Part shown: positions 1,722 through 11,678 of the stretch, piece by piece
Position numbering within the stretch: the stretch's first letter is position 1
Layout of the letters: the number at the start of each line of letters is the position of its first letter
Source: a virus
Virus record (IMG/VR): IMGVR_UViG_3300027749_000062
Span: 1-64,000 of that record
Strand: one strand, 5' to 3'
Length of the DNA stretch: 64,000 bases
Made by a program: the position numbers and the translations under genes
Notes under the pieces: generated by a model
What the model saw: only the letters and a program-made list of their open reading frames with translations
Database searches by the model: none
What the model was told of the DNA's origin: nothing

Positions 1722-2066
1722 TCACACTTTACGCCAAATGTCACCCTCCTTGACGTAAAGTTTACCATCCGGTCCTGGTTTCAAATCCACGGAAACATTT
1801 TTTTCTGTTCCAGGAATATATCTTGTACCATTACGAAATGTGACTGATATTGGATCTACCGGTGATGTATCAATTTCACCATATGTAGCTTTAAAAGATA
1901 GATAATGGCCAGAGTAATTTAGTTGTTTAACAATATCATCTGTGGCAAGTTCATCACTTTTAAAGACAAGTTTTTCACTGGCTTGTTTATAACCTTCTAC
2001 ACCGATTGCAAAAAGGCCTAAAAGGCCTAGTGATTTTGCAAAAGTTCTACGACCTGTGGGTGTCAT
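1722..2066 (-). CDS. Hypothetical protein with twin-arginine (Tat)-like N-terminal signal
   Basis: MTPTGRRTFAKSLGLLGLFAIG resembles the S/T-R-R-x-F-L-K consensus followed by a hydrophobic stretch; start overlaps the upstream stop. Confidence 0.6.
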   Translation of the reverse strand: MTPTGRRTFAKSLGLLGLFAIGVEGYKQASEKLVFKSDELATDDIVKQLNYSGHYLSFKATYGEIDTSPVDPISVTFRNGTRYIPGTEKNVSVDLKPGPDGKLYVKEGDIWRKV

Positions 2067-2338
2067 TTAGCGTCCTTGATACCTTCAATTAGAGCCTCAA
2101 CTTCTTTGAATTCTGCAAAGTCGGTTGATAGAGACTGTTTAAATTCATATACGGCAATTTTACGAATAATCTTTTTTGGAAGATTAAGTTCATCGTAAGC
2201 CAAATCAATCATATCAGAAATAGATTCATTATTGGATCTTGTTCTGTTCATACATGTAACAATTTCCTCAATATAACCCCTGAGACTCTTTAGTTGTTTT
2301 TCATCAAATGTACCAAATAGTGTATTTACTGTAGTCAT
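2063..2338 (-). CDS. dsbA: T4 DsbA-like / GapR-like dsDNA-binding protein
   Basis: 91-aa helical protein; ESISDMIDLAYDELNLPKKIIRKIAVYEFKQ...EVEAL resembles the T4 DsbA pattern. Confidence 0.65.
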   Translation of the reverse strand: MTTVNTLFGTFDEKQLKSLRGYIEEIVTCMNRTRSNNESISDMIDLAYDELNLPKKIIRKIAVYEFKQSLSTDFAEFKEVEALIEGIKDAK

Positions 2339-2339
2339 T

Positions 2340-2528
2340 TTATAGCTCCGCCTGTAGTTTACCTACAACTTCCAATAAAGGTTCTCTTGTTGCAACATTA
2401 CCATTCAATAGGTTAATCATTGTCAATTGAATACCTTCAGGATTTTTACCTTCAAATACAACAGAGATTTGTTTTGGATTTACAAAAATTGTGCCTTCTG
2501 TTTCGGCATCTAAAAATGGAATTAACAT
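2340..2528 (-). CDS. Small hypothetical protein, FlbD-like
   Basis: IFVNPKQI...MINLLNGN..TREPLLEVVGKL resembles the FlbD/SwrD family pattern. Confidence 0.45.
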   Translation of the reverse strand: MLIPFLDAETEGTIFVNPKQISVVFEGKNPEGIQLTMINLLNGNVATREPLLEVVGKLQAEL

Positions 2529-2529
2529 A

Positions 2530-3198
2530 TTACATTACACTTTCATTTTTTTCAAAAGCGACCCAATATTGAATGTCATCTTTTGTGTTTTTAAAATGTG
2601 CAAATCCTTTGAAAGAAATTTGCACTTCGTATTCACCAGGAATCATTTTTAAGTTTTCAACTTTAAAAACAATCTTGTATGATTTACCGTTACCGGCACC
2701 AACATTAATTGAGTTGGTATGTTGTGCATCATCTTTAGCATCATATGCAACCAATTCAACAGATTCACCGTCAGATTGTACAGAGATGTTTGGAGAAGAC
2801 AATACAGAAGATGCCTTCATAATGTCAGAGTAGTCTTCAGCAGTCAAAGTAAAAGAACAATCAACTTCATCCAATTTAATTTCTTTGTTTGGAGGAGTAA
2901 CAATCATTTCTTTTGCAGCTTTACGGAACTTAGTCTTACGGCGACCTCCGTTGAAGATAACATTAGCAGAATCAAATTCCAGTTCTGTTGCATCTTTAAA
3001 CAAAGAATATACAGACAAGAATTGGTTCAAATCATACACACAGAAATCTTCGGGAAAATCATCCTTGAGAATTGCTTGTGCGAGTACAGATTTACCTGCG
3101 GAAATTGTGGTAAGTTTATTACCTTTTTTAAATTCAATACCCTGATTGATTGTTGAAAAGTTTTTCAACACTCCTAGGGTTTCATTAGATAGTTTCAT
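2530..3198 (-). CDS. gp45: DNA polymerase sliding clamp
   Basis: MKLSNETLGVLKNFSTINQGI, YDLNQFL, FKVENLKMIPGEYEV, YWVAFE. Confidence 0.96.
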   Translation of the reverse strand: MKLSNETLGVLKNFSTINQGIEFKKGNKLTTISAGKSVLAQAILKDDFPEDFCVYDLNQFLSVYSLFKDATELEFDSANVIFNGGRRKTKFRKAAKEMIVTPPNKEIKLDEVDCSFTLTAEDYSDIMKASSVLSSPNISVQSDGESVELVAYDAKDDAQHTNSINVGAGNGKSYKIVFKVENLKMIPGEYEVQISFKGFAHFKNTKDDIQYWVAFEKNESVM

Positions 3199-3523
3199 CT
3201 TTTTTCTCCATTACAAAATCTTCACTAGAATACATTATATCATGTTCATACAAAAACATCAAGCAGCACATTGCATGTGCCAAGTGATGAATACCAGATT
3301 CGGGATCCATGACTTCACCCTTTTTCCATGCCCACACATGTCTTTCTAGTGCATCAAAGTACCTGCGTTTTGAATCAGGTACTTTTTTCCAATTATCACG
3401 TTCATATTTTTGAGCACCAAAAGTCAAAACTTTAACAGTTTCTTCTAGCGCTAAAGGTGGAAGTAAACCATACTCTAACTTGTTAGCATCATATTTGCGA
3501 CCAGCCTCTATCATCTTAGGCAT
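3185..3523 (-). CDS. DUF5664 / dATP-dGTP diphosphohydrolase N-terminal-domain protein
   Basis: GRKYDANK..YGLLP...VLTFGAQKYERDNWKK...DALERH...DPESGIHHLAHAMCCLMFL signature. Confidence 0.85.
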   Translation of the reverse strand: MPKMIEAGRKYDANKLEYGLLPPLALEETVKVLTFGAQKYERDNWKKVPDSKRRYFDALERHVWAWKKGEVMDPESGIHHLAHAMCCLMFLYEHDIMYSSEDFVMEKKDETI

Positions 3524-4320
3524 TACATTTCTCCAACATAATTAGCAACAGCTGGCATATCTCCATGGAAGTGATAGGTACCAATGTGTGCAGTACGCAT
3601 CCAAGGACACAACCAGATTGAACCACCCATGTTTCTCCACCATTGACAGAACATGTAATCTTCCGATAGATAACGCTCTGATTTTTTATCAATTACGGTG
3701 TCAAAATATGCATGAATATATCTTGAGCCATCAAAGTTTGCCTGACCCACATGGTCTGGTTTATATTTGAGTTCAGGATACTGTGCAGCAAATTTAGGGA
3801 AAACTTCACGTTTAACCATCATAAAACCAGTTCCAATTTCTAGAACTTCAAGAGGTTGTGTAACCGAAAACTGTGCAGTTCCTTTAACAGGATTAAATAC
3901 AAAGTCACCTGCTACCTTTTCTAGTACACCAGCATCAAGTTCTGGATTCTTTTCAAGAGCTTTCTTGACAGATTTCCATTTGATTGCTTTCTTTGGATAA
4001 GGTCCACCGATAACATCTTTATCAAGTGCTAACATTGCGATAACATCTTGCGGATTAAAATTAATATCCGAATCAATAAACAATAGATGAGTGCATTCTG
4101 AACGATTCAAAAACTCATCGACCAAATAGTTTCTTGCCCTTGTAATCAACGATTCATTGAACAAGAAAGAGAACTTTACCTGGATGCCGTATTGCATACA
4201 AAGGCCTTGTAGGTCCAAACAAGCCTTCATATAAAGACCGTGGTTCATACCACCATACATTGGTGTTGCTACAAAAATACTAAACTTCTGAAGCTCTTCT
4301 TTTTTAATACTTATTTCCAT
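3523..4320 (-). CDS. GT-A-fold glycosyltransferase-like protein
   Basis: VATPMYGG, ESLITRARN, THLLFIDSD (DxD), GTGFMMVKREVF, LSEDYMFC motifs. Confidence 0.75.
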   Translation of the reverse strand: MEISIKKEELQKFSIFVATPMYGGMNHGLYMKACLDLQGLCMQYGIQVKFSFLFNESLITRARNYLVDEFLNRSECTHLLFIDSDINFNPQDVIAMLALDKDVIGGPYPKKAIKWKSVKKALEKNPELDAGVLEKVAGDFVFNPVKGTAQFSVTQPLEVLEIGTGFMMVKREVFPKFAAQYPELKYKPDHVGQANFDGSRYIHAYFDTVIDKKSERYLSEDYMFCQWWRNMGGSIWLCPWMRTAHIGTYHFHGDMPAVANYVGEM

Positions 4321-4341
4321 GTAAACTCCATAAAATAGGGA

Positions 4342-4367
4342 AAACCACTTCCGCAGAGAAGTGGTTT
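4342..4367 (-). terminator. Stem-loop after the HTH gene (terminator or attenuator)
   Basis: Perfect 10-bp inverted repeat AAACCACTTC-cgcaga-GAAGTGGTTT with only a short U-run on the minus strand. Confidence 0.55.
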
Positions 4368-4379
4368 ATGTTTGCTTAA

Positions 4380-4649
4380 TTAAGCAGTTAGTGAGTAACC
4401 TGCGCTCATTGCAGCTTTAACCATTGCTTTGGTTGGTGAACCAAGACGGTAAAAACTGATTTTTTCGCCACTTTCTGTGTAGCGGGTGTTAGTGTAAATA
4501 ACATGACCTTCTTTGCGAAGCTCTTCGATCCGTGCGGAAACATTCTTGATACCGAAACGGCGTTGTGCAGCCTTAACTGTGAAAGTGTTGTAACCCTCAG
4601 TTTGTTTAAGTGCGGTCAAGATTTTTTGTTTTGCGGAAACTTTTTCCAT
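4380..4649 (-). CDS. Winged helix-turn-helix DNA-binding protein
   Basis: SAKQKILTAL...FTVKAAQRRFGIKNVSARIEELRKEGHVIYT...YRLG; GGAG RBS. Confidence 0.75.
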   Translation of the reverse strand: MEKVSAKQKILTALKQTEGYNTFTVKAAQRRFGIKNVSARIEELRKEGHVIYTNTRYTESGEKISFYRLGSPTKAMVKAAMSAGYSLTA

Positions 4650-4697
4650 AATATAACTCCAATAATTAAAAATACCTCACATTGCGTGAGTGTCACC

Positions 4698-4726
4698 ATC
4701 ATACATTTATATATGACGTTTGTCAA
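4698..4726 (-). promoter_or_regulatory. sigma70-type (early) promoter for the HTH gene and downstream genes
   Basis: Minus strand TTGACA-N17-TATGAT in an intergenic gap; inverted repeat CTCAC-N5-GTGAG just downstream (4676-4690). Confidence 0.8.
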
Positions 4727-4748
4727 GCATATTTGTGGTATACTTGTT

Positions 4749-6014
4749 TTACCTGCCAACTTGCGGCAGATATTTTGCCTTGGTTTCTTCCCAAGACAAA
4801 TAGATTAGGTCATCATAGAAAAGATTTTCATATGATACCTTGTTTTGTTTCTGTAGTTGCCGAATACGGCCTTTTGCATACTTTGTTTTCCAAATATTGG
4901 CCAAAGTTTCTTCACTGGTATCAAAAGACTTTACCAATTCTGCATCACCAATTTCTTTCCGTAAGAATTCATTTGTGTTATTATACAGGGGAGAAAAATA
5001 AATTCCGCGTTGGTGTTCGGTGCGAATCAGTTCTTTAGGAATACCAAGTTTAGAATATGCATAATTCAATGAACGATTTTTATGGTCGCGTTTCAATGGA
5101 AGTCCTTGTGGGTTCTTTGCTTCCCACCATTCAAAGTATTTTCTTGGTTCAATTTCTTTAATCCAATCAAACACCATATTGCGGGTAGAACGAGAAGGTT
5201 CAAACGCAACTGAGCCAGAAGAAAATCCCATTTTCTGCCAATGTTCCAAACCATCATACTGAGAAAGCCCGTTGGCTTTGGTTTTACCATATAATGACGT
5301 TGTAGTAACCCCAACAAGAGTGTCTCCATATCTTTCTTTCCAATCTTTCTGTACTGTATCTGCCAAACACAATAATGCCAATAGTTTACCACCCATGTAA
5401 CTATAACCAAGTGGTTGTAATGGAACAATAGTAGAACCAATTGCTGTATGGTTAATCATACTTTGTTGTGTCTTAACATCCCTAGACCATCCAATCGCAG
5501 TATCTCTAGGTGTAAGGTCAAGAAAGTCTGATGATATACAAATAACACCAAGGTACTTACCAGTGACGCCATCTTTGACTGTATAGAATAGATTGCGACC
5601 AATATTTGAGTTGTTCTTCATTGTAGAAGAAAATGTACGGACTGCATTCCATGTTTCTGCAAGTTCACCATTAGATAATTCTAATACAGGTTGCAGTTTT
5701 TCATAGTCATCAGGACCAGTTGGCATCCAAAAGTTCTTCTTGACCTTATTGATTATTTTGGCTTGCTCTTTGTCAATCAATTGTTGTTCCTCACCATCAA
5801 AGATAGTGAAGGTTGTTTCTGTTGGATAACGCTCTTTTACTTCAACCCATTTTTGATATAGTGTATATTCTTTCACATCCATTTTAGATGCATAAGTTAA
5901 ATCTTCAATCAGAATTTTTTTCAGATTGTCAACATCAATGTGTTCATGTTTTGGATTTTTCTCTAACCAATTATCCCATTGTTTTTCTACCGATTCAATT
6001 TGCGGTTTTGCCAT
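4749..6014 (-). CDS. DUF4338 / Druantia DruA-like protein
   Basis: GRNLFYTVKD..TGKYLGVICISSD...PRDTAIGW, VPLQPLGYSYMGGKLLALL, TTTSLYGK...SQYDGL..W.KMGFSSG. Confidence 0.75.
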   Translation of the reverse strand: MAKPQIESVEKQWDNWLEKNPKHEHIDVDNLKKILIEDLTYASKMDVKEYTLYQKWVEVKERYPTETTFTIFDGEEQQLIDKEQAKIINKVKKNFWMPTGPDDYEKLQPVLELSNGELAETWNAVRTFSSTMKNNSNIGRNLFYTVKDGVTGKYLGVICISSDFLDLTPRDTAIGWSRDVKTQQSMINHTAIGSTIVPLQPLGYSYMGGKLLALLCLADTVQKDWKERYGDTLVGVTTTSLYGKTKANGLSQYDGLEHWQKMGFSSGSVAFEPSRSTRNMVFDWIKEIEPRKYFEWWEAKNPQGLPLKRDHKNRSLNYAYSKLGIPKELIRTEHQRGIYFSPLYNNTNEFLRKEIGDAELVKSFDTSEETLANIWKTKYAKGRIRQLQKQNKVSYENLFYDDLIYLSWEETKAKYLPQVGR

Positions 6015-6636
6015 CGTTTAGTTTCTCAATTTTTTTCATCATGTTCATATAGTTAGCTTGAGCTTTAGAAATTTCTCTAATAGTCTTTTGGCGTTTCTCT
6101 TGTCCAGATTTAAGCGCCAAAGGCTTTGCACGGTCAGTATACACTATTCCATCCATGTGGTCAAGCTCATGGAGAAAACATCTTGCAGATATACCATTCA
6201 ATCTTGTGGTATGTTTTTCACCTACAAAATCTTGGTATTCTACCACAATTTCTTGTGGTCTGGTAATCCTAAGGCCCAATAATGGAAAAGATAAACAACC
6301 TTCAATCATATGGCACTCACCTTCAGATGAAATAACCTTAGGATTAAAAAATGCCACATAATCATCATTGGCACCCATGACAAAAACACGATAAGGAAAA
6401 CCACATTGATTCGCAGATAATCCTAAACCTTTATTCTTCTTACAAGTTTCCACTAAAGTAGATGCAAACTCATTAGCGTTCACAGGTGGATTTTGAAAAT
6501 CAAATTCTAATGTTTTTTGCCTAAGAATTTTCGCATTCTCATCAACCAAATCAAAAACTTTAGGTTCTTGTTTTGTTGCTGTTGGTGCAGTTTGTTTTAC
6601 TGCTTCTTCTGTACTATATGTAAATAAATCAACCAT
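5995..6636 (-). CDS. def: Peptide deformylase
   Basis: All three PDF motifs (GLGLSANQCG, EGCLS, HELDHMDG); start moved to ATG 6636 because a GAGGAG RBS precedes it. Confidence 0.93.
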   Translation of the reverse strand: MVDLFTYSTEEAVKQTAPTATKQEPKVFDLVDENAKILRQKTLEFDFQNPPVNANEFASTLVETCKKNKGLGLSANQCGFPYRVFVMGANDDYVAFFNPKVISSEGECHMIEGCLSFPLLGLRITRPQEIVVEYQDFVGEKHTTRLNGISARCFLHELDHMDGIVYTDRAKPLALKSGQEKRQKTIREISKAQANYMNMMKKIEKLNDGKTAN

Positions 6637-7774
6637 TTTCATTCTCCTCATCTTCATCAAAATCTTCAATATTAAAAACTGAATTTAAATTTCTGTTTGT
6701 AAGATAGTTATTGTTTATCTTCTGGTCTGTTTTACCAAAAACAATAAGCTTATTCATATCTTCACAAATGTCTTCAATGTTGGATGGAATGCATCCATAC
6801 AAATAAATTTTATTTGCTTTTGGTGTCATTCTTTCAAAAAATGCATTTGATATTTCATCTAAATGTGTGTGAAATTTATCTTTAAAAGAAAGAATGGATT
6901 TTATATAACATTTTTGTAAATCTTGTCCAGACAATTTACTAACATAAGTAATTACACGAATCTCTTTATTTGGATTCTGCTTAGACAATTTTGCAGCTAG
7001 AGATATTGCTTTCAATGGAGAGTTTGAAACATATGCCATGTATATAACAGTCGGAGTTTCAATATAATTATTTCCTTCCAACCAGGATTGCGCTTCTGTT
7101 GAACCTGCAAAAACCACAGGCAAAAGTTTATTATTTTTAAAAGAATCTGCACGTTGATAAATTTTATCAGCTAATTCATATCTTTTTGTCTGTGAAAATT
7201 TTCCTTTACCTAGGCAATCATTTATCCAATTTCTTATATCTTGAATATTTAACTCCAAGTCTTCATTATTAATTGCTCTTAATGCTCCTTGAAGTAGGTC
7301 ATCTTCTAATACCAAACCGGCCGGTGGACTTTCTTCACCTGCATTTAATCTAAAAGATAATTTTTCTTCTTCAATCTCATTAATTTTAACTACGGCACAA
7401 ATTCTATTTTTAAATTTCTTTTCTTCTAAAATTTTATCTTTTGTTCTACCATCAACTAATGAAAATTTTCCACCGGACATTCGTTTTACGAATATGGGTT
7501 TGCAGTACAATTTCCATCCAGAATCCAAAATGTCTGATTTTAATTCTTTATAATCTGGATTTAAACCACCTGCGCGAATTGATTGTGAAGATCCATAACC
7601 ATCTCTTTGAATTAGATTACTTTCTATCAGAAAAAACCCTTCAAATTGTAATGATTCAAATTTTTCATTACTATAAAATTGAGGAAACGTGTTTTTAGAA
7701 ATATGTTCTTTTACGAATTTTAAATTTTCTTCGGAAAAAGATCCATGTTCTTTGATTGTAATGATTGATTTCAT
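6629..7774 (-). CDS. Hypothetical protein with ParB/Srx-like N-terminal domain
   Basis: ELKSDILDSGW...KPIFV...FSLVDGRTK resembles ParB box motifs; CAGGAG RBS; visibly AT-rich. Confidence 0.5.
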   Translation of the reverse strand: MKSIITIKEHGSFSEENLKFVKEHISKNTFPQFYSNEKFESLQFEGFFLIESNLIQRDGYGSSQSIRAGGLNPDYKELKSDILDSGWKLYCKPIFVKRMSGGKFSLVDGRTKDKILEEKKFKNRICAVVKINEIEEEKLSFRLNAGEESPPAGLVLEDDLLQGALRAINNEDLELNIQDIRNWINDCLGKGKFSQTKRYELADKIYQRADSFKNNKLLPVVFAGSTEAQSWLEGNNYIETPTVIYMAYVSNSPLKAISLAAKLSKQNPNKEIRVITYVSKLSGQDLQKCYIKSILSFKDKFHTHLDEISNAFFERMTPKANKIYLYGCIPSNIEDICEDMNKLIVFGKTDQKINNNYLTNRNLNSVFNIEDFDEDEENENG

Positions 7775-7847
7775 ATAAACTCCTGTTAAAGATTTGAGTA
7801 TTTTTTAGTTACTCTGTTCATTTTACTGAACATTAAAAAGGTAAATT

Positions 7848-9563
7848 TTACTTTACCACCTGTGAAAAGTTGTTCTTCTTTTCAAATTTTACGATTGACC
7901 TAAACTTGTCAAAGAGTTGGTCGCCTTTATGTGATATGACAAATATATTTGTATCTTGTCCCATCTCATGTATCAGTTTCAAAAATTCATCTGTACCTAC
8001 TGTATCTAGGCTGGAATCAAACACCTCATCTAATATCAATAGATTTGTGTTCGTTGAATTTTTTAGTTTTGCAATTTGCCTCCATGTAAACAACAGAGCC
8101 AAATCAATACGCATCTTTTCACCTTCAGAGAAGTTGGAATAACTAAACTCATCACGGTGCCTAGATTTGATTGTTTCTTCAAAGTTCTCATTTAAGTTAA
8201 AGTTAACAAAGAAGTCCATAGCCTTCAGATACTTGTTGACAAACTTGTTTATGATTGGCAAATACTGTTTGATAATCTTGGTCTTAATACCATTATCTTT
8301 CAGTAGGGAAGCTGCATACTCATGATAGTGTTTATCAACAGACAGATTCTCTTGTTCTTTCTCCAAATTGGCCAAATCAGACCTGAGTTCTTTTAGTTTC
8401 TCATTTACATCTGTTAGATTGTCCTTGCGTTCACTCAATTCTTTAATTTCTTTATTCAATTTAACGATATAGTTATTGACGGCAGTGATTGTAGAATTGT
8501 GTTTAACGACCTCATTATTGTGTTCTGTAATGTGTTTGTTGATGGCAATTATTTCATTGGTTCTGGTAGTAAGTTTCGACATTTCATCTATGATGGTTTG
8601 CAAAGCGCCTTCTATTTCCGTTTTCTTGTTTTGCTTTTCTTCTACCTGAGAACTTTTCCACTCTGTTGTGATTATTTGTTTACATGTAGGACAATCATCA
8701 TTGTGTTCATAGAACTGAATGTCCTTCTCTACCTTCAAATAAGTAGATGACATTTTAGCTTCAACTTGTACAAACTTTTTATATCGTTTTTCAACATCTA
8801 ACTTGTCAGTAATTTTGGTAGATAGTTTTTCAATGTGTTTGTTAATCAGTTCAATATCTTTTGTCAGCTTTGAGTTAATTAACTCATTGTCTGCAATTTC
8901 CTGTTTCTTTTTGGCGATTTCTTCATCATTGTTTTTCTTGTGTTCTTCAATGTTGTGTTCCTGCAACAGTATTTTTTCATTCACCAGTTCAAGTGCATAC
9001 TTTGTTTTTGTTGTGGATTCTTTAATCGTGGCCATTCTTTCTTTGATTAGACCATTCATTGAAGTGAAAATTTGAATATCTAACAATTCTTCTATGATAG
9101 TACGCCGGTCAGCTGGTGACAATTGCATGAATGGTACAAATGCTGCTGATCCAAGAATAACGATTTGAGTAAAAGATTTGAAATTAAACTTCAAAATCGA
9201 TTTTTCTAGGAAATCTTGATAATCTTTCGCCCTGGCATCTTGATTTACTAAAATAGAATTGCAGTAAATTTCAAACAAATTTGGTTTAATCCCACGAACA
9301 ATCTTATATTGTTTTTTACCAATTGTGAATTCAACTTCAACTACAGTATCAGAGTTGTTAATGGAGTTTATAAGGTTTGGTTTGTTTATCTTACGAAAAG
9401 GCTTACCGAAAAGACCAAAACATAGTGCATCAAGAATCGTACTCTTGCCTGCGCCGTTATTGCCAATAATCAATGTGTTCGTTGATTTGTTGAGTTTGAT
9501 TTCGGTAAACGTATTGCCAGTGGACAATAAGTTCTTCCATCTAATCGTCTGAAAAATAATCAT
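7848..9563 (-). CDS. gp46: Recombination endonuclease ATPase subunit (Rad50/SbcC-like)
   Basis: GNNGAGKST, CPTC zinc hook, FSEGEKMRIDLALLF, LILDEVFDSSLD. Confidence 0.97.
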   Translation of the reverse strand: MIIFQTIRWKNLLSTGNTFTEIKLNKSTNTLIIGNNGAGKSTILDALCFGLFGKPFRKINKPNLINSINNSDTVVEVEFTIGKKQYKIVRGIKPNLFEIYCNSILVNQDARAKDYQDFLEKSILKFNFKSFTQIVILGSAAFVPFMQLSPADRRTIIEELLDIQIFTSMNGLIKERMATIKESTTKTKYALELVNEKILLQEHNIEEHKKNNDEEIAKKKQEIADNELINSKLTKDIELINKHIEKLSTKITDKLDVEKRYKKFVQVEAKMSSTYLKVEKDIQFYEHNDDCPTCKQIITTEWKSSQVEEKQNKKTEIEGALQTIIDEMSKLTTRTNEIIAINKHITEHNNEVVKHNSTITAVNNYIVKLNKEIKELSERKDNLTDVNEKLKELRSDLANLEKEQENLSVDKHYHEYAASLLKDNGIKTKIIKQYLPIINKFVNKYLKAMDFFVNFNLNENFEETIKSRHRDEFSYSNFSEGEKMRIDLALLFTWRQIAKLKNSTNTNLLILDEVFDSSLDTVGTDEFLKLIHEMGQDTNIFVISHKGDQLFDKFRSIVKFEKKNNFSQVVK

Positions 9564-10636
9564 GCTTGTTCTAGGTTCAGTGCCTCAACATAAAGTTCTT
9601 TTAACATAGTCTTTAGTTTTGTGTTATCGATGCCAGAGTTTTCCAGTGCATCAACGTATTTGTTAATGATGGTTATTGTATCCTCTGCTTCATCTATCTT
9701 ATCATCTTCCATACCTTCTGTCAAGTCTAAAGCGTCTTCAATAATGGTAATATCAAGTGGATTTACCATGTAGAGTTTGTTCATAAACTGGTCGAACAGA
9801 TACGGATTAATTTTGTTGACGGCAACAACTTTCACATATGAACCGGTAAACTTACTTAGGTCTTTTGCCATAACTTCTTGGATTGTTTCAACTTTATCAT
9901 CATAGACAATCCTGTGGAACATAACATTTGGATTCTTTAAGAAAGTAAGTTCTTTGCTTCCAAAATCAAAGATGTGAAAGCCCCTATCATCGCCATAGTC
10001 TTGCCAAGTAAGCTCATACGGGTTCCCGAGATAATGTATATCGTTAGCACTAGATTTATGGTGATAATGACCACTAAAAGTATGTGTAAACTTCCTAAAT
10101 AATCCACGATTCAATCCTTCTTCAGATGGCATGCCTCGATGCATGGCAAAACCTGCAATTTCAAAATGTCCCATGCATATCTCTGCATCGGTTTCTTTTA
10201 TTGTCTCCATACTATCTTCATAGTTTTCTGGACAAATCCAAGGCATCATACAAACTTTATGAGGACCAACATATATGTTTGATGGATGGTCAATCACATT
10301 TATATTACCATACTCTCTCAATAATAAATCTACAGAGTTAACGTCATTGGTGTTCTTGAAATATGTATCGTGATTACCTGCCAGCATATGTACTTCAATA
10401 CCTAGTTCTGCCAACTTATCAAAGAACATTTCTTTTGTTCTTTTGAGCGAGTAGAAGTTTACATATTTGCGCCTATCAAACGTGTCACCAAGAATAAGGA
10501 CAGTATTAATGTTGGCACTTGTGATAGCAGGAAAAAATGTTTCATTATAAAATTTTTCATAGTAATCCAAAAAGTGAACGGAGTCATTCCTGGCTCCAAA
10601 ATGTTGATCCGTGATTATTGCTACTTTCATATTCAC
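9560..10636 (-). CDS. gp47: Recombination endonuclease nuclease subunit (Mre11/SbcD-like)
   Basis: ITDQHFG, GDTFD, GNHD, GHFE, SGHYH metallophosphoesterase motifs; start may be ATG 10630. Confidence 0.97.
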   Translation of the reverse strand: MNMKVAIITDQHFGARNDSVHFLDYYEKFYNETFFPAITSANINTVLILGDTFDRRKYVNFYSLKRTKEMFFDKLAELGIEVHMLAGNHDTYFKNTNDVNSVDLLLREYGNINVIDHPSNIYVGPHKVCMMPWICPENYEDSMETIKETDAEICMGHFEIAGFAMHRGMPSEEGLNRGLFRKFTHTFSGHYHHKSSANDIHYLGNPYELTWQDYGDDRGFHIFDFGSKELTFLKNPNVMFHRIVYDDKVETIQEVMAKDLSKFTGSYVKVVAVNKINPYLFDQFMNKLYMVNPLDITIIEDALDLTEGMEDDKIDEAEDTITIINKYVDALENSGIDNTKLKTMLKELYVEALNLEQA

Positions 10637-11012
10637 ACATTACCCTATCTGTAAGTCTTACGATTCTTTTGCGGTATTCAAACCCTAACAAACTTGCCTT
10701 GTTGCCCTCTGCATACGGAGGATTCTTTCCTCTACTTGTATATTGTCCGGCAGTTAAGTCTATAATCTTGTTTTCTTTATCGATAGCCCACCAATGCCAA
10801 ACATCTTCATAGTCTAGAGCTTTATAGGTGTGCATTGCTTTATATCCAAAAATCTTATACAAACAACCAGTAGCATTATGGCAATGACCAAATAATGGAT
10901 TGGTGGAGTTTTTACCCCACCATTTTCTAGGTAACAGGTCATAGGTTAAGTTTTTAAGGATTAATCCAGAAATTATACCAAGGTTTTTCTCATTATAATC
11001 TAAAAGGTCCAT
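10584..11012 (-). CDS. Hypothetical protein with a papain/transglutaminase-like (YunG-like) Cys-His-Asp triad
   Basis: GHCHNAT...HWWA...IIDLTAGQY. Confidence 0.55.
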   Translation of the reverse strand: MDLLDYNEKNLGIISGLILKNLTYDLLPRKWWGKNSTNPLFGHCHNATGCLYKIFGYKAMHTYKALDYEDVWHWWAIDKENKIIDLTAGQYTSRGKNPPYAEGNKASLLGFEYRKRIVRLTDRVMCEYESSNNHGSTFWSQE

Positions 11013-11020
11013 GTTGTCAA
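10992..11020 (-). promoter_or_regulatory. Perfect-consensus sigma70 promoter upstream of gp47-gp46
   Basis: Minus strand TTGACA (11020-11015), 17-nt spacer, TATAAT (10997-10992). Confidence 0.85.
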
Positions 11021-11607
11021 GCGATTTCTTCTTTATCGTTCAAGAATGCCTTTTCTGCAAGTATTAATGCCATTTCACCTTCAGGTTCCAAGAAAGCCTC
11101 AATGCCTTTTGGTTTTTTAGCATTCTTTTTTTCTTCTTTTTTCTTGGATTGACCTAACTCATAAACCTCTATGAAGTCGGCAATATTATCATATAGTTCG
11201 AACTGCTTAGTGCCTCCTAAATCTAAATCCTGCATCTCATACTCACTTAGGATGCCCATCTGAGCTGTAGACTTGTACTTGATATATGTTTGCTTCTTTT
11301 CTTTCTGTATACGTCTGAGGAATGCAAAGTATATAATCTGTGTGAAGTATGCAAATGGATTGGAAGACTTAGCTGGATTGAAGTTCTCAAAATACATTAG
11401 ACAGTTTTCAATACCATCAGAAATCATTTCATCTCTGTAAGAATAACTAATAAAGTTTGGTTTGTGTGATAGACCCTCGGCAATTTTCATCCAACATTCA
11501 CCAATATAATTTGGTATTGGTTCTTTTGGATTCTCAGACTTACGTTCTTTGTATGCCAGGAGTTCTTGTAGAAAGGTCGCGTTGTTAATGTAATGTTTAG
11601 AGCTCAT
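11017..11607 (-). CDS. gp55: Late-transcription sigma factor
   Basis: HYINNATF, IPNYIGEC..KIAEGLSHKPNF..YSYRDEMISDGIENC, NPFAYFTQIIYFAFLRRIQKEKKQ; likely start MSSKHY at 11607 rather than 11673. Confidence 0.96.
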   Translation of the reverse strand: MSSKHYINNATFLQELLAYKERKSENPKEPIPNYIGECWMKIAEGLSHKPNFISYSYRDEMISDGIENCLMYFENFNPAKSSNPFAYFTQIIYFAFLRRIQKEKKQTYIKYKSTAQMGILSEYEMQDLDLGGTKQFELYDNIADFIEVYELGQSKKKEEKKNAKKPKGIEAFLEPEGEMALILAEKAFLNDKEEIA

Positions 11608-11678
11608 GCATGTATACCAAAATATGTGTTGACAAAAGGGCTTGACTAATGTTAGTCTCCCGGTGTTGACCATTTAAA

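What the first reader, a model, noticed from the sequence alone, without database searches (positions are those of the whole stretch)
3185..7774. Candidate DNA-modification / counter-defence island between gp45 and gp46
Seen: six accessory genes sit inside the replication module: ParB/Srx-like, def, DUF4338/DruA-like, wHTH, GT-A transferase and DUF5664. Knowledge: DUF5664-type dATP/dGTP diphosphohydrolases occur in phages that replace purines (Z-genomes); ParB-like and glycosyltransferase genes commonly accompany phage base-modification loci; DUF4338 is DruA of the Druantia defence system. Inference: nucleotide-pool editing plus transferases could form an undescribed base-hypermodification pathway. 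No purZ, dpdA/que or hydroxymethylase gene is visible in this window, so the chemistry is open and the genes may be unrelated.
Basis: partly seen in the sequence, partly recalled or inferred. Interest (0 to 1): 0.7.

Follow-up and report, generated by a model that had tools for sequence, protein, structure and literature searches.

The report
Mixed accessory genes in replication module
Six accessory genes between the sliding-clamp and recombination-nuclease genes of an abundant freshwater T4-like phage are real, but they are separately inherited genes rather than a DNA-hypermodification pathway; one of them, a DruA-like acyltransferase whose fold is closest to phage Mu's DNA modifier Mom, remains a candidate DNA modifier.

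Summary
All six genes exist on the minus strand between gp45 and gp46. All six family calls hold, including the ParB/Srx call, which only a predicted structure could confirm.

The pathway reading is not supported.
- A 100%-complete close relative that carries all six genes has no PurZ, DpdA/TGT, ThyA-type hydroxymethylase or TET/JBP gene.
- DUF5664 occurs in 1,613 GenBank phage records, including phage groups not known (my knowledge) to modify their DNA.
- The genes assort independently outside this lineage. Cr30/phiM12-type phages keep the glycosyltransferase (GT-A), usually with peptide deformylase (PDF), but never DruA. Marine pelagimyophages keep PDF-DruA, often with MazG, but never GT-A or DUF5664.
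- The wHTH gene has its own promoter-like site and terminator-like hairpin.
- The ParB-like gene is a 1.2-kb presence/absence cassette in lake populations.

Five of the genes are nevertheless fixed in this lineage. GT-A and DUF5664 are about as conserved as gp44.

The best reading is a compact mosaic of independent accessory functions: dNTP pyrophosphohydrolase, GT-A, small regulator, GNAT acyltransferase, PDF and a flexible ParB-like gene.

One lead survives. The DruA-like protein is a GNAT whose top structural match, by a small margin, is Mom.

The scan has noted the same arrangement, and the DruA-Mom resemblance, on other DNA. Interest is moderate to low.

The parts
2530..3198 (-). gp45 sliding clamp (flank). 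Its start overlaps the end of the DUF5664 gene by 14 nt.
   Evidence: PF09116 at 2.5e-10 and phrog_223 at 3.5e-70.
3185..3523 (-). Stand-alone DUF5664 protein (112 aa), a probable dNTP pyrophosphohydrolase.
   Evidence: PF18909 at 2.9e-36 and phrog_801 at 9.3e-46. A stand-alone DUF5664 of Arthrobacter phage Wayne hydrolyses dATP, dGTP and dUTP to dNMP (PMC12884076). Present in 46 of 48 close relatives and replaced by a dNMP kinase in the others.
3523..4320 (-). GT-A-type glycosyltransferase-like protein (265 aa). Its end abuts the DUF5664 start.
   Evidence: Anp1 match below cut-off; phrog_1574 at 1e-64. A family profile hits the STIV A197 GT-A at E 0.0017. The DxD, ED and H positions are invariant. 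Homologues lie between gp46 and gp45 in phiM12, Cr30, DLP_6 and 25 of 25 IMG/VR loci.
4342..4367 (-). Terminator-like hairpin (11-bp stem followed by a T-rich tail) just after the wHTH stop codon.
4380..4649 (-). Small winged-helix (HTH_39) protein, 89 aa.
   Evidence: PF14090 at 1.1e-6 and phrog_4973 at 4.7e-15.
4698..4726 (-). Best sigma-70-like promoter match of the region (TTGACA-17-TATGAT, 11 of 12), in the DruA-wHTH spacer.
   Evidence: This is a consensus match only.
4749..6014 (-). DruA/DUF4338-family protein (421 aa): a helical N-terminal domain followed by a GNAT-fold core (about residues 103-365) with a helical insertion.
   Evidence: PF14236 at 1.4e-22 and PADLOC DruA. AF2 pLDDT 84. 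All Foldseek and VIA matches are GNATs, with Mom 8bv8 on top at Z 9.9.
5995..6669 (-). Peptide deformylase. The true start is probably an ATG downstream of the listed TTG. Its stop overlaps the DruA-like start by 20 nt.
   Evidence: PF01327 at 1.8e-36. Catalytic motifs are intact. PDF is reported as core to pelagimyophages 'inside a DNA metabolism operon' (PMC7029224).
6629..7774 (-). ParB/Srx-fold protein (381 aa): ParB-N-like residues about 37-211, then an unassigned alpha/beta C-terminal domain.
6640..7853 (.). Presence/absence cassette that carries the ParB-like gene.
   Evidence: Contigs of three lake metagenome runs join 6639 to 7854, skipping 1,214 nt. Depth over 6599-7833 is well below both flanks in three of the four runs and modestly below in X2. 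The gene is absent from 76 of 80 related loci. G+C is 0.28-0.31.
7848..9563 (-). gp46 recombination nuclease subunit (flank).
   Evidence: phrog_77 at 2.1e-170.

Best explanation
The gp46-gp45 interval of this freshwater T4-like phage (a relative of the pelagimyophages) is a compact mosaic of accessory genes. They act separately and sit in a slot that holds variable cargo across T4-like phages of Proteobacteria and cyanobacteria.

Shown here:
- The six family or fold assignments.
- The conserved order gp46-PDF-DruA-wHTH-GT-A-DUF5664-gp45 in this lineage.
- The independent distribution of the genes in other lineages.
- The absence of the known enzymes that start base hypermodification.
- The cassette nature of the ParB-like gene.

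Inferred functions:
1. DUF5664 hydrolyses dNTPs to dNMPs, as a MazG-like pool-sanitising or recycling enzyme. Marine relatives carry MazG in the interval, and a few close relatives carry a dNMP kinase in the DUF5664 position.
2. The GT-A enzyme transfers a sugar from a nucleotide-sugar to a non-DNA acceptor (phage or host protein, or envelope glycan).
3. The wHTH protein is a small early regulator made from its own transcription unit.
4. The DruA-like protein is an acyltransferase whose substrate is unknown.
5. PDF removes N-formyl groups from nascent proteins during infection.
6. The ParB-like protein is a dispensable NTP-binding or DNA-binding accessory.
For: Family and fold calls.

Conservation within the lineage, from 48 loci that show whole gp45 and gp46:
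- PDF is present in 47, DruA in 48, wHTH in 48, GT-A in 48, DUF5664 in 46 and the ParB-like gene in 3.
- Median identity is 83% for GT-A and 82% for DUF5664, against 80% for gp44 and 69% for gp45 and gp46.

Independent assortment:
- Among 25 Cr30-type loci, GT-A lies next to gp45 in 25, PDF is present in 19, and DruA, DUF5664 and wHTH are never in the interval.
- Among 16 marine pelagimyophage loci, PDF-DruA is present in 16, MazG in 12, and GT-A and DUF5664 in none.
- In phiM12 the GT-A gene is the only gene between gp46 and gp45.
- In Synechococcus phages the DruA-like gene sits between gp44 and gp62.
- DLP_6 and Cr30 carry DUF5664 elsewhere in the genome.
- The 31 GenBank records with DruA and the listed GT-A records (60 of 64 shown) share no record.

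No PF00709, PF01702, PF00303 or PF12851 match was found in the window's record or in the complete relative G001, which has terminal repeats and 100% estimated completeness.

DUF5664 occurs in 1,613 phage records. The wHTH gene is bounded by a promoter-like site and a terminator-like hairpin. Joints in metagenome contigs skip the ParB-like cassette. PDF has been described as a core pelagimyophage gene inside the DNA-metabolism operon (PMC7029224).
Against: - Five genes keep a fixed order in hundreds of related contigs, and GT-A and DUF5664 are as conserved as gp44. Stable linkage is what a pathway would also show, although vertical inheritance explains it too.
- GT-A, DUF5664 and gp45 overlap or abut, as do PDF and DruA, so they are probably co-expressed with replication genes.
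- DLP_6 and Cr30 share three of the genes (GT-A, PDF, DUF5664).
- The DruA-like protein's best structural match is a DNA-modifying enzyme.
- No acceptor substrate has been shown for the GT-A or the GNAT.
- Unknown modification chemistry that needs none of the searched families cannot be excluded by sequence.
Confidence: 0.6

Rival explanations
1. One gene modifies nucleic acid. The DruA-like GNAT works like Mom, transferring an acyl or aminoacyl group to DNA after replication (or to another nucleic acid). This would give the phage self-marking or counter-defence, for example against Druantia-type systems. The other five genes are bystanders.
For: - The GNAT fold is confirmed, with Mom 8bv8 as the top hit in two aligners: Foldseek probability 1.0, and VIA Z 9.9 over 169 of 202 residues, the longest alignment in the list.
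- The model has a helical insertion between late strands of the GNAT core. Mom also has an essential HTH-like insertion (PMC13219725).
- The gene always lies inside replication or recombination modules.
- Its homologue DruA belongs to a DNA-targeting defence system.
- It is very strongly conserved, with many invariant basic and aromatic positions.
- One GenBank annotator labelled a cyanophage homologue 'methylcarbamoylase mom'.
Against: - Mom leads 49 other GNATs by less than one Z unit (Z 7.7-9.6), and the Foldseek E-values are only 5e-3 to 3e-2.
- There is no sequence similarity to Mom (hhalign probability 0.3%).
- Equivalence of Mom's R111, S124 and R151 could not be checked.
- A Q-x-x-G-type loop at the strand-helix junction (Q200-G203) suggests an acyl-CoA donor, as in ordinary GNATs. 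This is read from the sequence only.
- A shared fold does not give the substrate.
Confidence: 0.2
2. One reading: DUF5664 depletes canonical purine dNTPs, and the GT-A, DruA-like and ParB-like proteins build an undescribed hypermodified base together.
For: - GT-A, DUF5664 and gp45 are tightly packed, and the five-gene order is stable in this lineage.
- DUF5664 enzymes take part in dZTP pathways in some phages (PMC12884076).
- DLP_6 and Cr30 also combine GT-A, PDF and DUF5664.
Against: - No PurZ, DpdA/TGT, hydroxymethylase or TET/JBP match exists in a complete relative, so no known acceptor base for a sugar is made.
- DruA and GT-A never co-occur outside this lineage.
- DUF5664 is replaceable by a dNMP kinase and absent from Mosig, HTVC008M and phiM12.
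- The ParB-like gene is missing from most relatives and from co-occurring populations.
- The wHTH transcription unit splits the block.
- DUF5664 is widespread among phages in general.
Confidence: 0.05
3. PDF and the DruA-like GNAT form an N-terminal protein-processing pair. PDF deformylates nascent phage proteins, and the GNAT then N-acylates them, as Rim-type acetyltransferases do.
For: - The PDF stop overlaps the DruA-like start by 20 nt.
- PDF-DruA adjacency holds in 47 of 48 close relatives and 16 of 16 marine pelagimyophage loci.
- N-terminal acetyltransferases (RimI, Naa10, Naa50, NAA80) are among the GNAT matches at Z 8.0-8.4.
Against: - PDF keeps the same gp46-proximal position without DruA in 19 of 25 Cr30-type loci.
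- DruA-like genes in Synechococcus phages lie between gp44 and gp62 with no PDF beside them.
- HTVC008M has DruA but no PDF.
- So the adjacency is explained by both genes being anchored in the same slot.
Confidence: 0.07

Closest known systems
Accessory genes of the replication module of pelagimyophages and cyanomyophages (HTVC008M, Mosig; Zaragoza-Solas et al. 2020, PMC7029224)
   Same: The gene order is T4-like (gp47-gp46 ... gp45-gp44-gp62). PDF lies next to gp46 'inside a DNA metabolism operon'. A DUF4338 gene lies next to PDF, with 55-59% identity.
   Different: Here the interval is only 4.6 kb against 9-13 kb. It lacks the peptidase, CobS, S21, Hsp20 and 2OG oxygenase genes of the marine phages. 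It adds GT-A, DUF5664 and wHTH, which the marine phages lack in this slot. The habitat is freshwater.
T4-like phages of Alpha- and Gammaproteobacteria (Caulobacter Cr30, Stenotrophomonas DLP_6, Sinorhizobium phiM12)
   Same: They carry a homologous GT-A-like gene (45-58% identity) at the gp45-proximal end of the gp46-gp45 interval. Cr30 and DLP_6 also have PDF after gp46.
   Different: They have no DruA-like gene. DUF5664 is elsewhere in the genome or absent.
DruA (PF14236/DUF4338), first gene of Druantia type I defence systems
   Same: The match is significant in both Pfam and PADLOC, covering profile positions 74-296 of 297. The fold is GNAT, as stated for DUF4338 in PMC10853773.
   Different: The gene is encoded by a lytic-type phage and stands alone, with no DruB-E neighbours in the gp47-gp44 stretch examined. 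It is embedded in replication genes.
Phage Mu Mom (PDB 8bv8), a Gly-tRNA-dependent DNA adenine modifier
   Same: GNAT core with an extra helical insertion. It is the top structural match in two aligners.
   Different: No sequence similarity. The lead over ordinary acetyltransferases is under one Z unit. The protein here is twice as long, with extra N- and C-terminal domains. Catalytic residues were not compared.
Z-genome nucleotide-pool enzymes (DUF5664-DUF550/MazZ, DatZ, PurZ)
   Same: A DUF5664 domain is present, of the kind shown to hydrolyse dATP and dGTP (PMC12884076).
   Different: No PurZ match in the record or a complete relative. DatZ, DUF550 and DpoZ were not searched here. Most phages with DUF5664 are not known Z-genome phages (PMC12884076).
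ParB/Srx superfamily (pNOB8 ParB-N 5k5d, PadC 6ryk, KorB, Noc, sulfiredoxin)
   Same: Residues about 37-211 superpose at Z 9.7 and 9.3. The conserved 'DG-x-TR' motif aligns with that of pNOB8 ParB.
   Different: No ParB_N Pfam match. The C-terminal alpha/beta domain is unassigned. There is no partner ParA. The gene is a dispensable cassette.

Membership tests
Phage base-hypermodification pathway (Z-genome, 7-deazaguanine, or hmC/hmU-derived) | An enzyme that makes the non-canonical precursor or inserts the base: PurZ, DpdA/TGT, a ThyA-family dNMP hydroxymethylase, or TET/JBP. | tested here: not met
   PF00709, PF01702, PF00303 and PF12851 gave no match in the 104-kb record or in five relatives, including a 100%-complete 160.7-kb genome. 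Controls rang for the first three families. The Tet_JBP control was weak.
Phage base-hypermodification pathway | The member genes co-occur across phage lineages. | tested here: not met
   GT-A occurs without DruA or DUF5664 in 25 of 25 loci. DruA occurs without GT-A or DUF5664 in 16 of 16 loci. The GenBank record sets listed do not overlap.
Phage base-hypermodification pathway | Non-canonical nucleoside in virion DNA. | not testable with these tools
   Only short-read contigs of public runs were available.
DUF5664 / dATP-dGTP diphosphohydrolase N-terminal domain (PF18909) | Full-length match above Pfam's gathering score. | tested here: met
   123.8 bits against a cut-off of 27, covering profile positions 2-92 of 99.
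DUF5664 / dATP-dGTP diphosphohydrolase | dNTP-to-dNMP pyrophosphohydrolase activity. | not testable with these tools
   Activity has been shown for the stand-alone Wayne protein only (PMC12884076).
GT-A fold metal-dependent glycosyltransferase | DxD metal-binding motif and a conserved acidic base. | tested here: met
   D83-x-D85, E220-D221 and H245 are invariant in 10 sequences down to 31% identity.
GT-A fold metal-dependent glycosyltransferase | GT-A fold or significant family match. | tested here: inconclusive
   The Anp1 match is below cut-off. A family profile hits the STIV A197 GT-A at E 0.0017 over about 70 residues. No structure was predicted for this protein.
DruA (PF14236) of Druantia type I | Sequence match to the family model. 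| tested here: met
   80.7 bits against a cut-off of 27. PADLOC PDLC00002 at 6.9e-18.
Druantia type I system | Neighbouring druB-druE genes, including the DruE helicase. | tested here: not met
   The neighbours are PDF, wHTH, GT-A, gp45 and gp46. This is a stand-alone homologue, not a defence system.
GNAT superfamily | GNAT fold. | tested here: met
   All 50 listed VIA matches (Z 7.7-9.9) are GNAT-fold proteins, as are the Foldseek matches, over residues about 103-365 of a pLDDT-84 model.
Mom-type DNA aminoacyl/acyl transferases | Mom catalytic residues (R111, S124, D149, R151) and DNA-modifying activity. | not tested
   No residue-level structural alignment was available. hhalign found no sequence relation.
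Peptide deformylase (PF01327) | The three catalytic motifs G-x-G-x-(A/S)-A-x-Q, EGCLS and HExxH. | tested here: met
   GLGLSANQ, EGCLS and HELDH are present. 125.5 bits against a cut-off of 22.8.
ParB/Srx superfamily | ParB-N/Srx fold with the conserved Arg-containing motif. | tested here: met
   Foldseek probability 1.0 to Noc, ParB and KorB. VIA Z 9.7 and 9.3. 'DGRTK', with family consensus G-x-T-R, aligns to pNOB8 ParB 'DGYTR'.

The most novel reading that the evidence does not exclude
The phage DruA-like GNAT is a Mom-like enzyme that covalently marks phage DNA (or another nucleic acid) after replication. The family is conserved in thousands of T4-like pelagimyophage, cyanomyophage and freshwater phage variants and always sits in the replication module. 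By extension, bacterial DruA would be the modification or self-marking arm of Druantia type I, and the phage copy would be an orphan counter-defence modifier.
Probability: 0.15. Interest if true: 0.75.

Novelty: new member of a known kind. Interest (0 to 1): 0.35.

Why it matters
The result removes a tempting false lead. DUF5664, a glycosyltransferase and a ParB-like gene lying together do not indicate a new DNA chemistry here, and DUF5664 alone should not be read as a marker of Z-genomes.

It also describes the gp46-gp45 slot of T4-like phages. PDF is anchored at the gp46 end and a GT-A at the gp45 end, with lineage-specific cargo between them.

It singles out two very abundant and highly conserved phage enzymes of unknown substrate as worthwhile biochemical targets: the DruA-like GNAT and the gp45-adjacent GT-A. 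If the GNAT acts on DNA, that would also bear on the unknown role of DruA in Druantia type I.

Tried and rejected
- Single-sequence searches of the PDB with the DUF5664, GT-A-like, DruA-like and ParB-like proteins gave nothing useful. The DruA profile against PDB sequences gave no hit.
- hhalign of the DruA-like family against Mom found no relation.
- PHROGs gave no 'mom' family for the cyanophage homologue that GenBank labels 'methylcarbamoylase mom', so that label is not from PHROGs.
- The ParB-like protein has no match in 50,697 GenBank phage records. It is not homologous to the 335-aa HTVC008M protein at the same position.
- ESM Atlas gave only weak ParB_N leads for the ParB-like protein and only its own family for the DruA-like protein.
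- Pfam scans of 60 members of the ParB-like family gave no consistent family.
- The Tet_JBP searches were negative, but the controls barely rang, so that negative is weak.
- QueC/D/E, DatZ (PF12917), DUF550 (PF04447), DpoZ and DNA methyltransferases were not searched.
- I looked for restriction-resistance data on phages that share the GT-A. The DLP6 paper used 18 enzymes, but the sentence giving the outcome is incomplete in the held text. The phiM9 paper has nothing on it. No conclusion was drawn.
- Public runs that hold this DNA are all kept as short-read contigs. No long-read or kinetic signal of modification could be examined, and no RNA run was found.
- The C-terminal domain of the ParB-like protein found no fold match, because the ParB domain fills the hit list. 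This says nothing about whether that domain is novel.
- No complex prediction was run, since no protein-protein binding is claimed.

Full report
**What the DNA is.**
The window is the first 64 kb of a 104,241-bp IMG/VR virus record, estimated 62% complete. It is a T4-like phage. Its nearest cultured relatives at the DNA level are the Pelagibacter myophages Mosig and HTVC008M. Public runs that hold this stretch are freshwater and lake metagenomes. Seven runs from seven studies hold at least half of the sampled words, and one of them may be the source sample.

All genes from gp62 and gp44 through gp47 lie on the minus strand.

**Observation.**
Six ORFs lie between gp45 (2530-3198) and gp46 (7848-9563).
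- DUF5664 (3185-3523): PF18909, E 2.9e-36.
- GT-A-like (3523-4320).
- wHTH HTH_39 (4380-4649): E 1.1e-6.
- DruA/DUF4338 (4749-6014): E 1.4e-22 in Pfam, and also a PADLOC DruA match.
- Peptide deformylase (5995-6669): E 1.8e-36, with the GLGLSANQ, EGCLS and HELDH motifs intact.
- A 381-aa protein with no library hit (6629-7774).

The GT-A call rests on four things: a sub-threshold Anp1 match, a family profile hit to the GT-A glycosyltransferase A197 of STIV (E 0.0017), invariant DxD, ED and H positions, and an independent GenBank label, 'dpG-synthase-like', on a homologue.

The 381-aa protein has 153 representative relatives. With 60 of them as the alignment it folds at pLDDT 91.5. Residues about 37-211 match ParB-N/Srx proteins:
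- Foldseek: probability 1.0, E 4e-5 to Noc, ParB and KorB.
- VIA: Z 9.7 to pNOB8 ParB-N, Z 9.3 to PadC and Z 6.9 to sulfiredoxin, clearly above the unrelated rows.
- Its 'DGRTK' motif aligns with the 'DGYTR' of pNOB8 ParB.

**Is it a pathway? Missing partners.**
Adenylosuccinate-synthetase/PurZ, TGT/DpdA, thymidylate-synthase-family and Tet_JBP models find nothing in this record. They also find nothing in five relatives. One of those relatives is a 160,679-bp genome with terminal repeats and 100% estimated completeness. It carries all six genes at 86-97% protein identity.

Without a hydroxymethylated or otherwise pre-modified base, no known acceptor exists for a DNA glycosyltransferase.

DUF5664 is not a Z-genome marker. 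It matches 1,613 GenBank phage records, including Cutibacterium, Mycobacterium, Pseudomonas and Vibrio phages. The paper that measured the activity of a stand-alone DUF5664 (dATP, dGTP and dUTP to dNMP) also places it in canonical-genome Arthrobacter phages (PMC12884076).

**Is it a pathway? Co-occurrence.**
Within the lineage the order gp46-PDF-DruA-wHTH-GT-A-DUF5664-gp45 is nearly universal. Among 48 related loci that show whole gp45 and gp46:
- PDF is present in 47, DruA in 48, wHTH in 48, GT-A in 48 and DUF5664 in 46.
- The ParB-like gene is present in only 3.

GT-A has a median identity of 83% and DUF5664 82%. That is as conserved as gp44 (80%) and more conserved than gp45 and gp46 (69%). 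The DruA figure (81%) is biased upwards because the loci were chosen by DruA similarity.

So five genes are fixed, functional parts of this lineage. This linkage is phylogenetically non-independent, however, and outside the lineage the genes separate.
- In 25 IMG/VR loci anchored on the Cr30-type GT-A, the GT-A always sits directly before gp45. PDF follows gp46 in 19. DruA, wHTH and the ParB-like gene are never seen, and DUF5664 is never in the interval.
- In 16 marine pelagimyophage loci, gp46-PDF-DruA is universal and MazG follows DruA in 12. GT-A, DUF5664 and wHTH are never seen.

Cultured phages agree.
- phiM12 has only the GT-A between gp46 and gp45.
- Cr30 and DLP_6 have PDF ... GT-A there, with DUF5664 kilobases away.
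- Mosig has MazG-DUF4338-PDF.
- HTVC008M has DUF4338 but no PDF.
- Synechococcus phages carry the DruA-like gene between gp44 and gp62.
- The 31 GenBank records with the DruA-like gene and the listed records with the GT-A (60 of 64 shown) share no record.

The window's 4.6-kb interval is therefore a compact hybrid of two older architectures.

**Is it a pathway? Organisation.**
- The best sigma-70-like site of the region (TTGACA-17-TATGAT) lies in the DruA-wHTH spacer. An 11-bp hairpin with a T-rich tail follows the wHTH stop. The wHTH gene therefore looks like its own unit, splitting the block into gp46/ParB-like/PDF/DruA and GT-A/DUF5664/gp45 groups. These are consensus matches, not proof.
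- In five close relatives DUF5664 is replaced by a dNMP kinase (PF21448). In marine relatives a MazG lies in the interval, next to DruA. This fits a general nucleotide-housekeeping role rather than a specific pathway step.
- The ParB-like gene is AT-rich and absent from 76 of 80 related loci. In three of four lake metagenomes, contigs join 6639 directly to 7854, skipping 1,214 nt. Depth over the cassette is well below both flanks in three of the four runs and modestly below in X2. It is a flexible cassette, not part of a conserved module.

**The DruA-like protein.**
With 42 pelagimyophage, freshwater and cyanophage homologues it folds at pLDDT 84. Residues about 103-365 are a GNAT fold. All 50 listed VIA matches (Z 7.7-9.9) and the Foldseek matches are GNAT-fold proteins. 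This agrees with a statement in PMC10853773 that DUF4338 is a GNAT.

The top match in both aligners is phage Mu Mom (8bv8): Z 9.9, 169 aligned residues, rmsd 4.2, Foldseek probability 1.0. Mom is a GNAT with an essential HTH-like insertion. It transfers glycine from Gly-tRNA to adenine in dsDNA (PMC13219725). The model here also has helices inserted between late core strands.

The margin over ordinary acetyltransferases is under one Z unit, and there is no sequence relation to Mom. I could not compare catalytic residues. The family also keeps a Q-x-x-G loop at the strand-helix junction where GNATs bind the CoA pyrophosphate, though this is read from the sequence only.

I therefore rate 'works like Mom on nucleic acid' as a live minority reading (about 0.15-0.2), not a finding.

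The PDF-DruA overlap does not need a functional explanation. PDF keeps its gp46-proximal place without DruA in other lineages, and DruA occurs without PDF in cyanophages and HTVC008M.

**Known or new.**
PDF inside the DNA-metabolism operon is already described as a core pelagimyophage trait (PMC7029224). The DUF4338 gene is annotated in Mosig. The library search for 'DUF4338' returned four papers, and none treats phage copies.

Earlier notes of this scan describe the same DruA/GT-A/DUF5664 arrangement between gp46 and gp45 on other genomes. One follow-up reached the same DruA-GNAT-Mom result on a marine relative. So this finding is a repeat on other DNA.

**Verdict.**
- The pathway or island interpretation is not supported beyond one open candidate gene.
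- The block is best described as a lineage-specific, compact mosaic of independent accessory genes in a slot of the T4-like replication module that holds variable cargo.

**Basis for the proposed functions.**
- Measured homologues or textbook families: DUF5664 as a pyrophosphohydrolase and PDF as a deformylase.
- Motif and fold level only: the GT-A, the GNAT, the wHTH and the ParB-like protein.
- Inference from the absence of known DNA acceptor chemistry and from distant homologues that sit beside tail-fibre and sugar-metabolism genes: a non-DNA acceptor for the GT-A.

Noticed in passing
L008:7176-8285, L009:4738-5847, L055:6493-7602, L073:2383-3498, L035:7286-8413, L059:5423-6505: In a subset of close relatives an extra gene of about 360-375 aa, with no Pfam or PHROG match, is inserted between the DruA-like and wHTH genes. 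This is a second variable position in the interval.
   Followed up: partly
L035:9669-10319 (also L038, L060, L061, L063): In five relatives DUF5664 is replaced at the same position by a P-loop protein of about 216 aa that matches deoxynucleotide monophosphate kinase (PF21448, E 1.6e-8).
   Followed up: partly
window 1722-2528: Three small ORFs (114, 91 and 62 aa) lie between gp44 and gp45. The two tested (114 and 91 aa) have no Pfam match; the 62-aa ORF was not scanned. Their conservation among relatives is patchy (25-100% identity, often absent).
   Followed up: partly
window 10584-11673: Two conserved ORFs downstream of gp47 (142 and 218 aa) have no Pfam match. By tblastn the 218-aa ORF maps to the position of the late sigma factor gp55 in Mosig and HTVC008M (48-56% identity).
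   Followed up: partly
L188:16977, L192:9259: Two marine pelagimyophage loci give weak (22% identity) tblastn matches to the ParB-like protein close to gp45. They may be distant homologues at the other end of the interval.
   Followed up: no
L003:9750-10277 (HTVC008M): The gene that occupies the PDF position in HTVC008M is a JmjC/cupin-like protein, not a deformylase. HTVC008M has no PF01327 match anywhere in its genome.
   Followed up: yes
L089:3980-7527 (Synechococcus phage ACG-2014f), L088:2959-4801 (HTVC027P): Distant homologues of the GT-A (about 31% identity) lie beside another glycosyltransferase, a nucleotide-sugar epimerase and tail-fibre genes. This hints at glycan or protein acceptors in that branch.
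   Followed up: no
window 3141-3387 and 8081-8327: Summed contig depth peaks over the DUF5664/gp45 junction and part of gp46 in all four lake runs. The likely cause is that many related phage populations share these conserved stretches.
   Followed up: no
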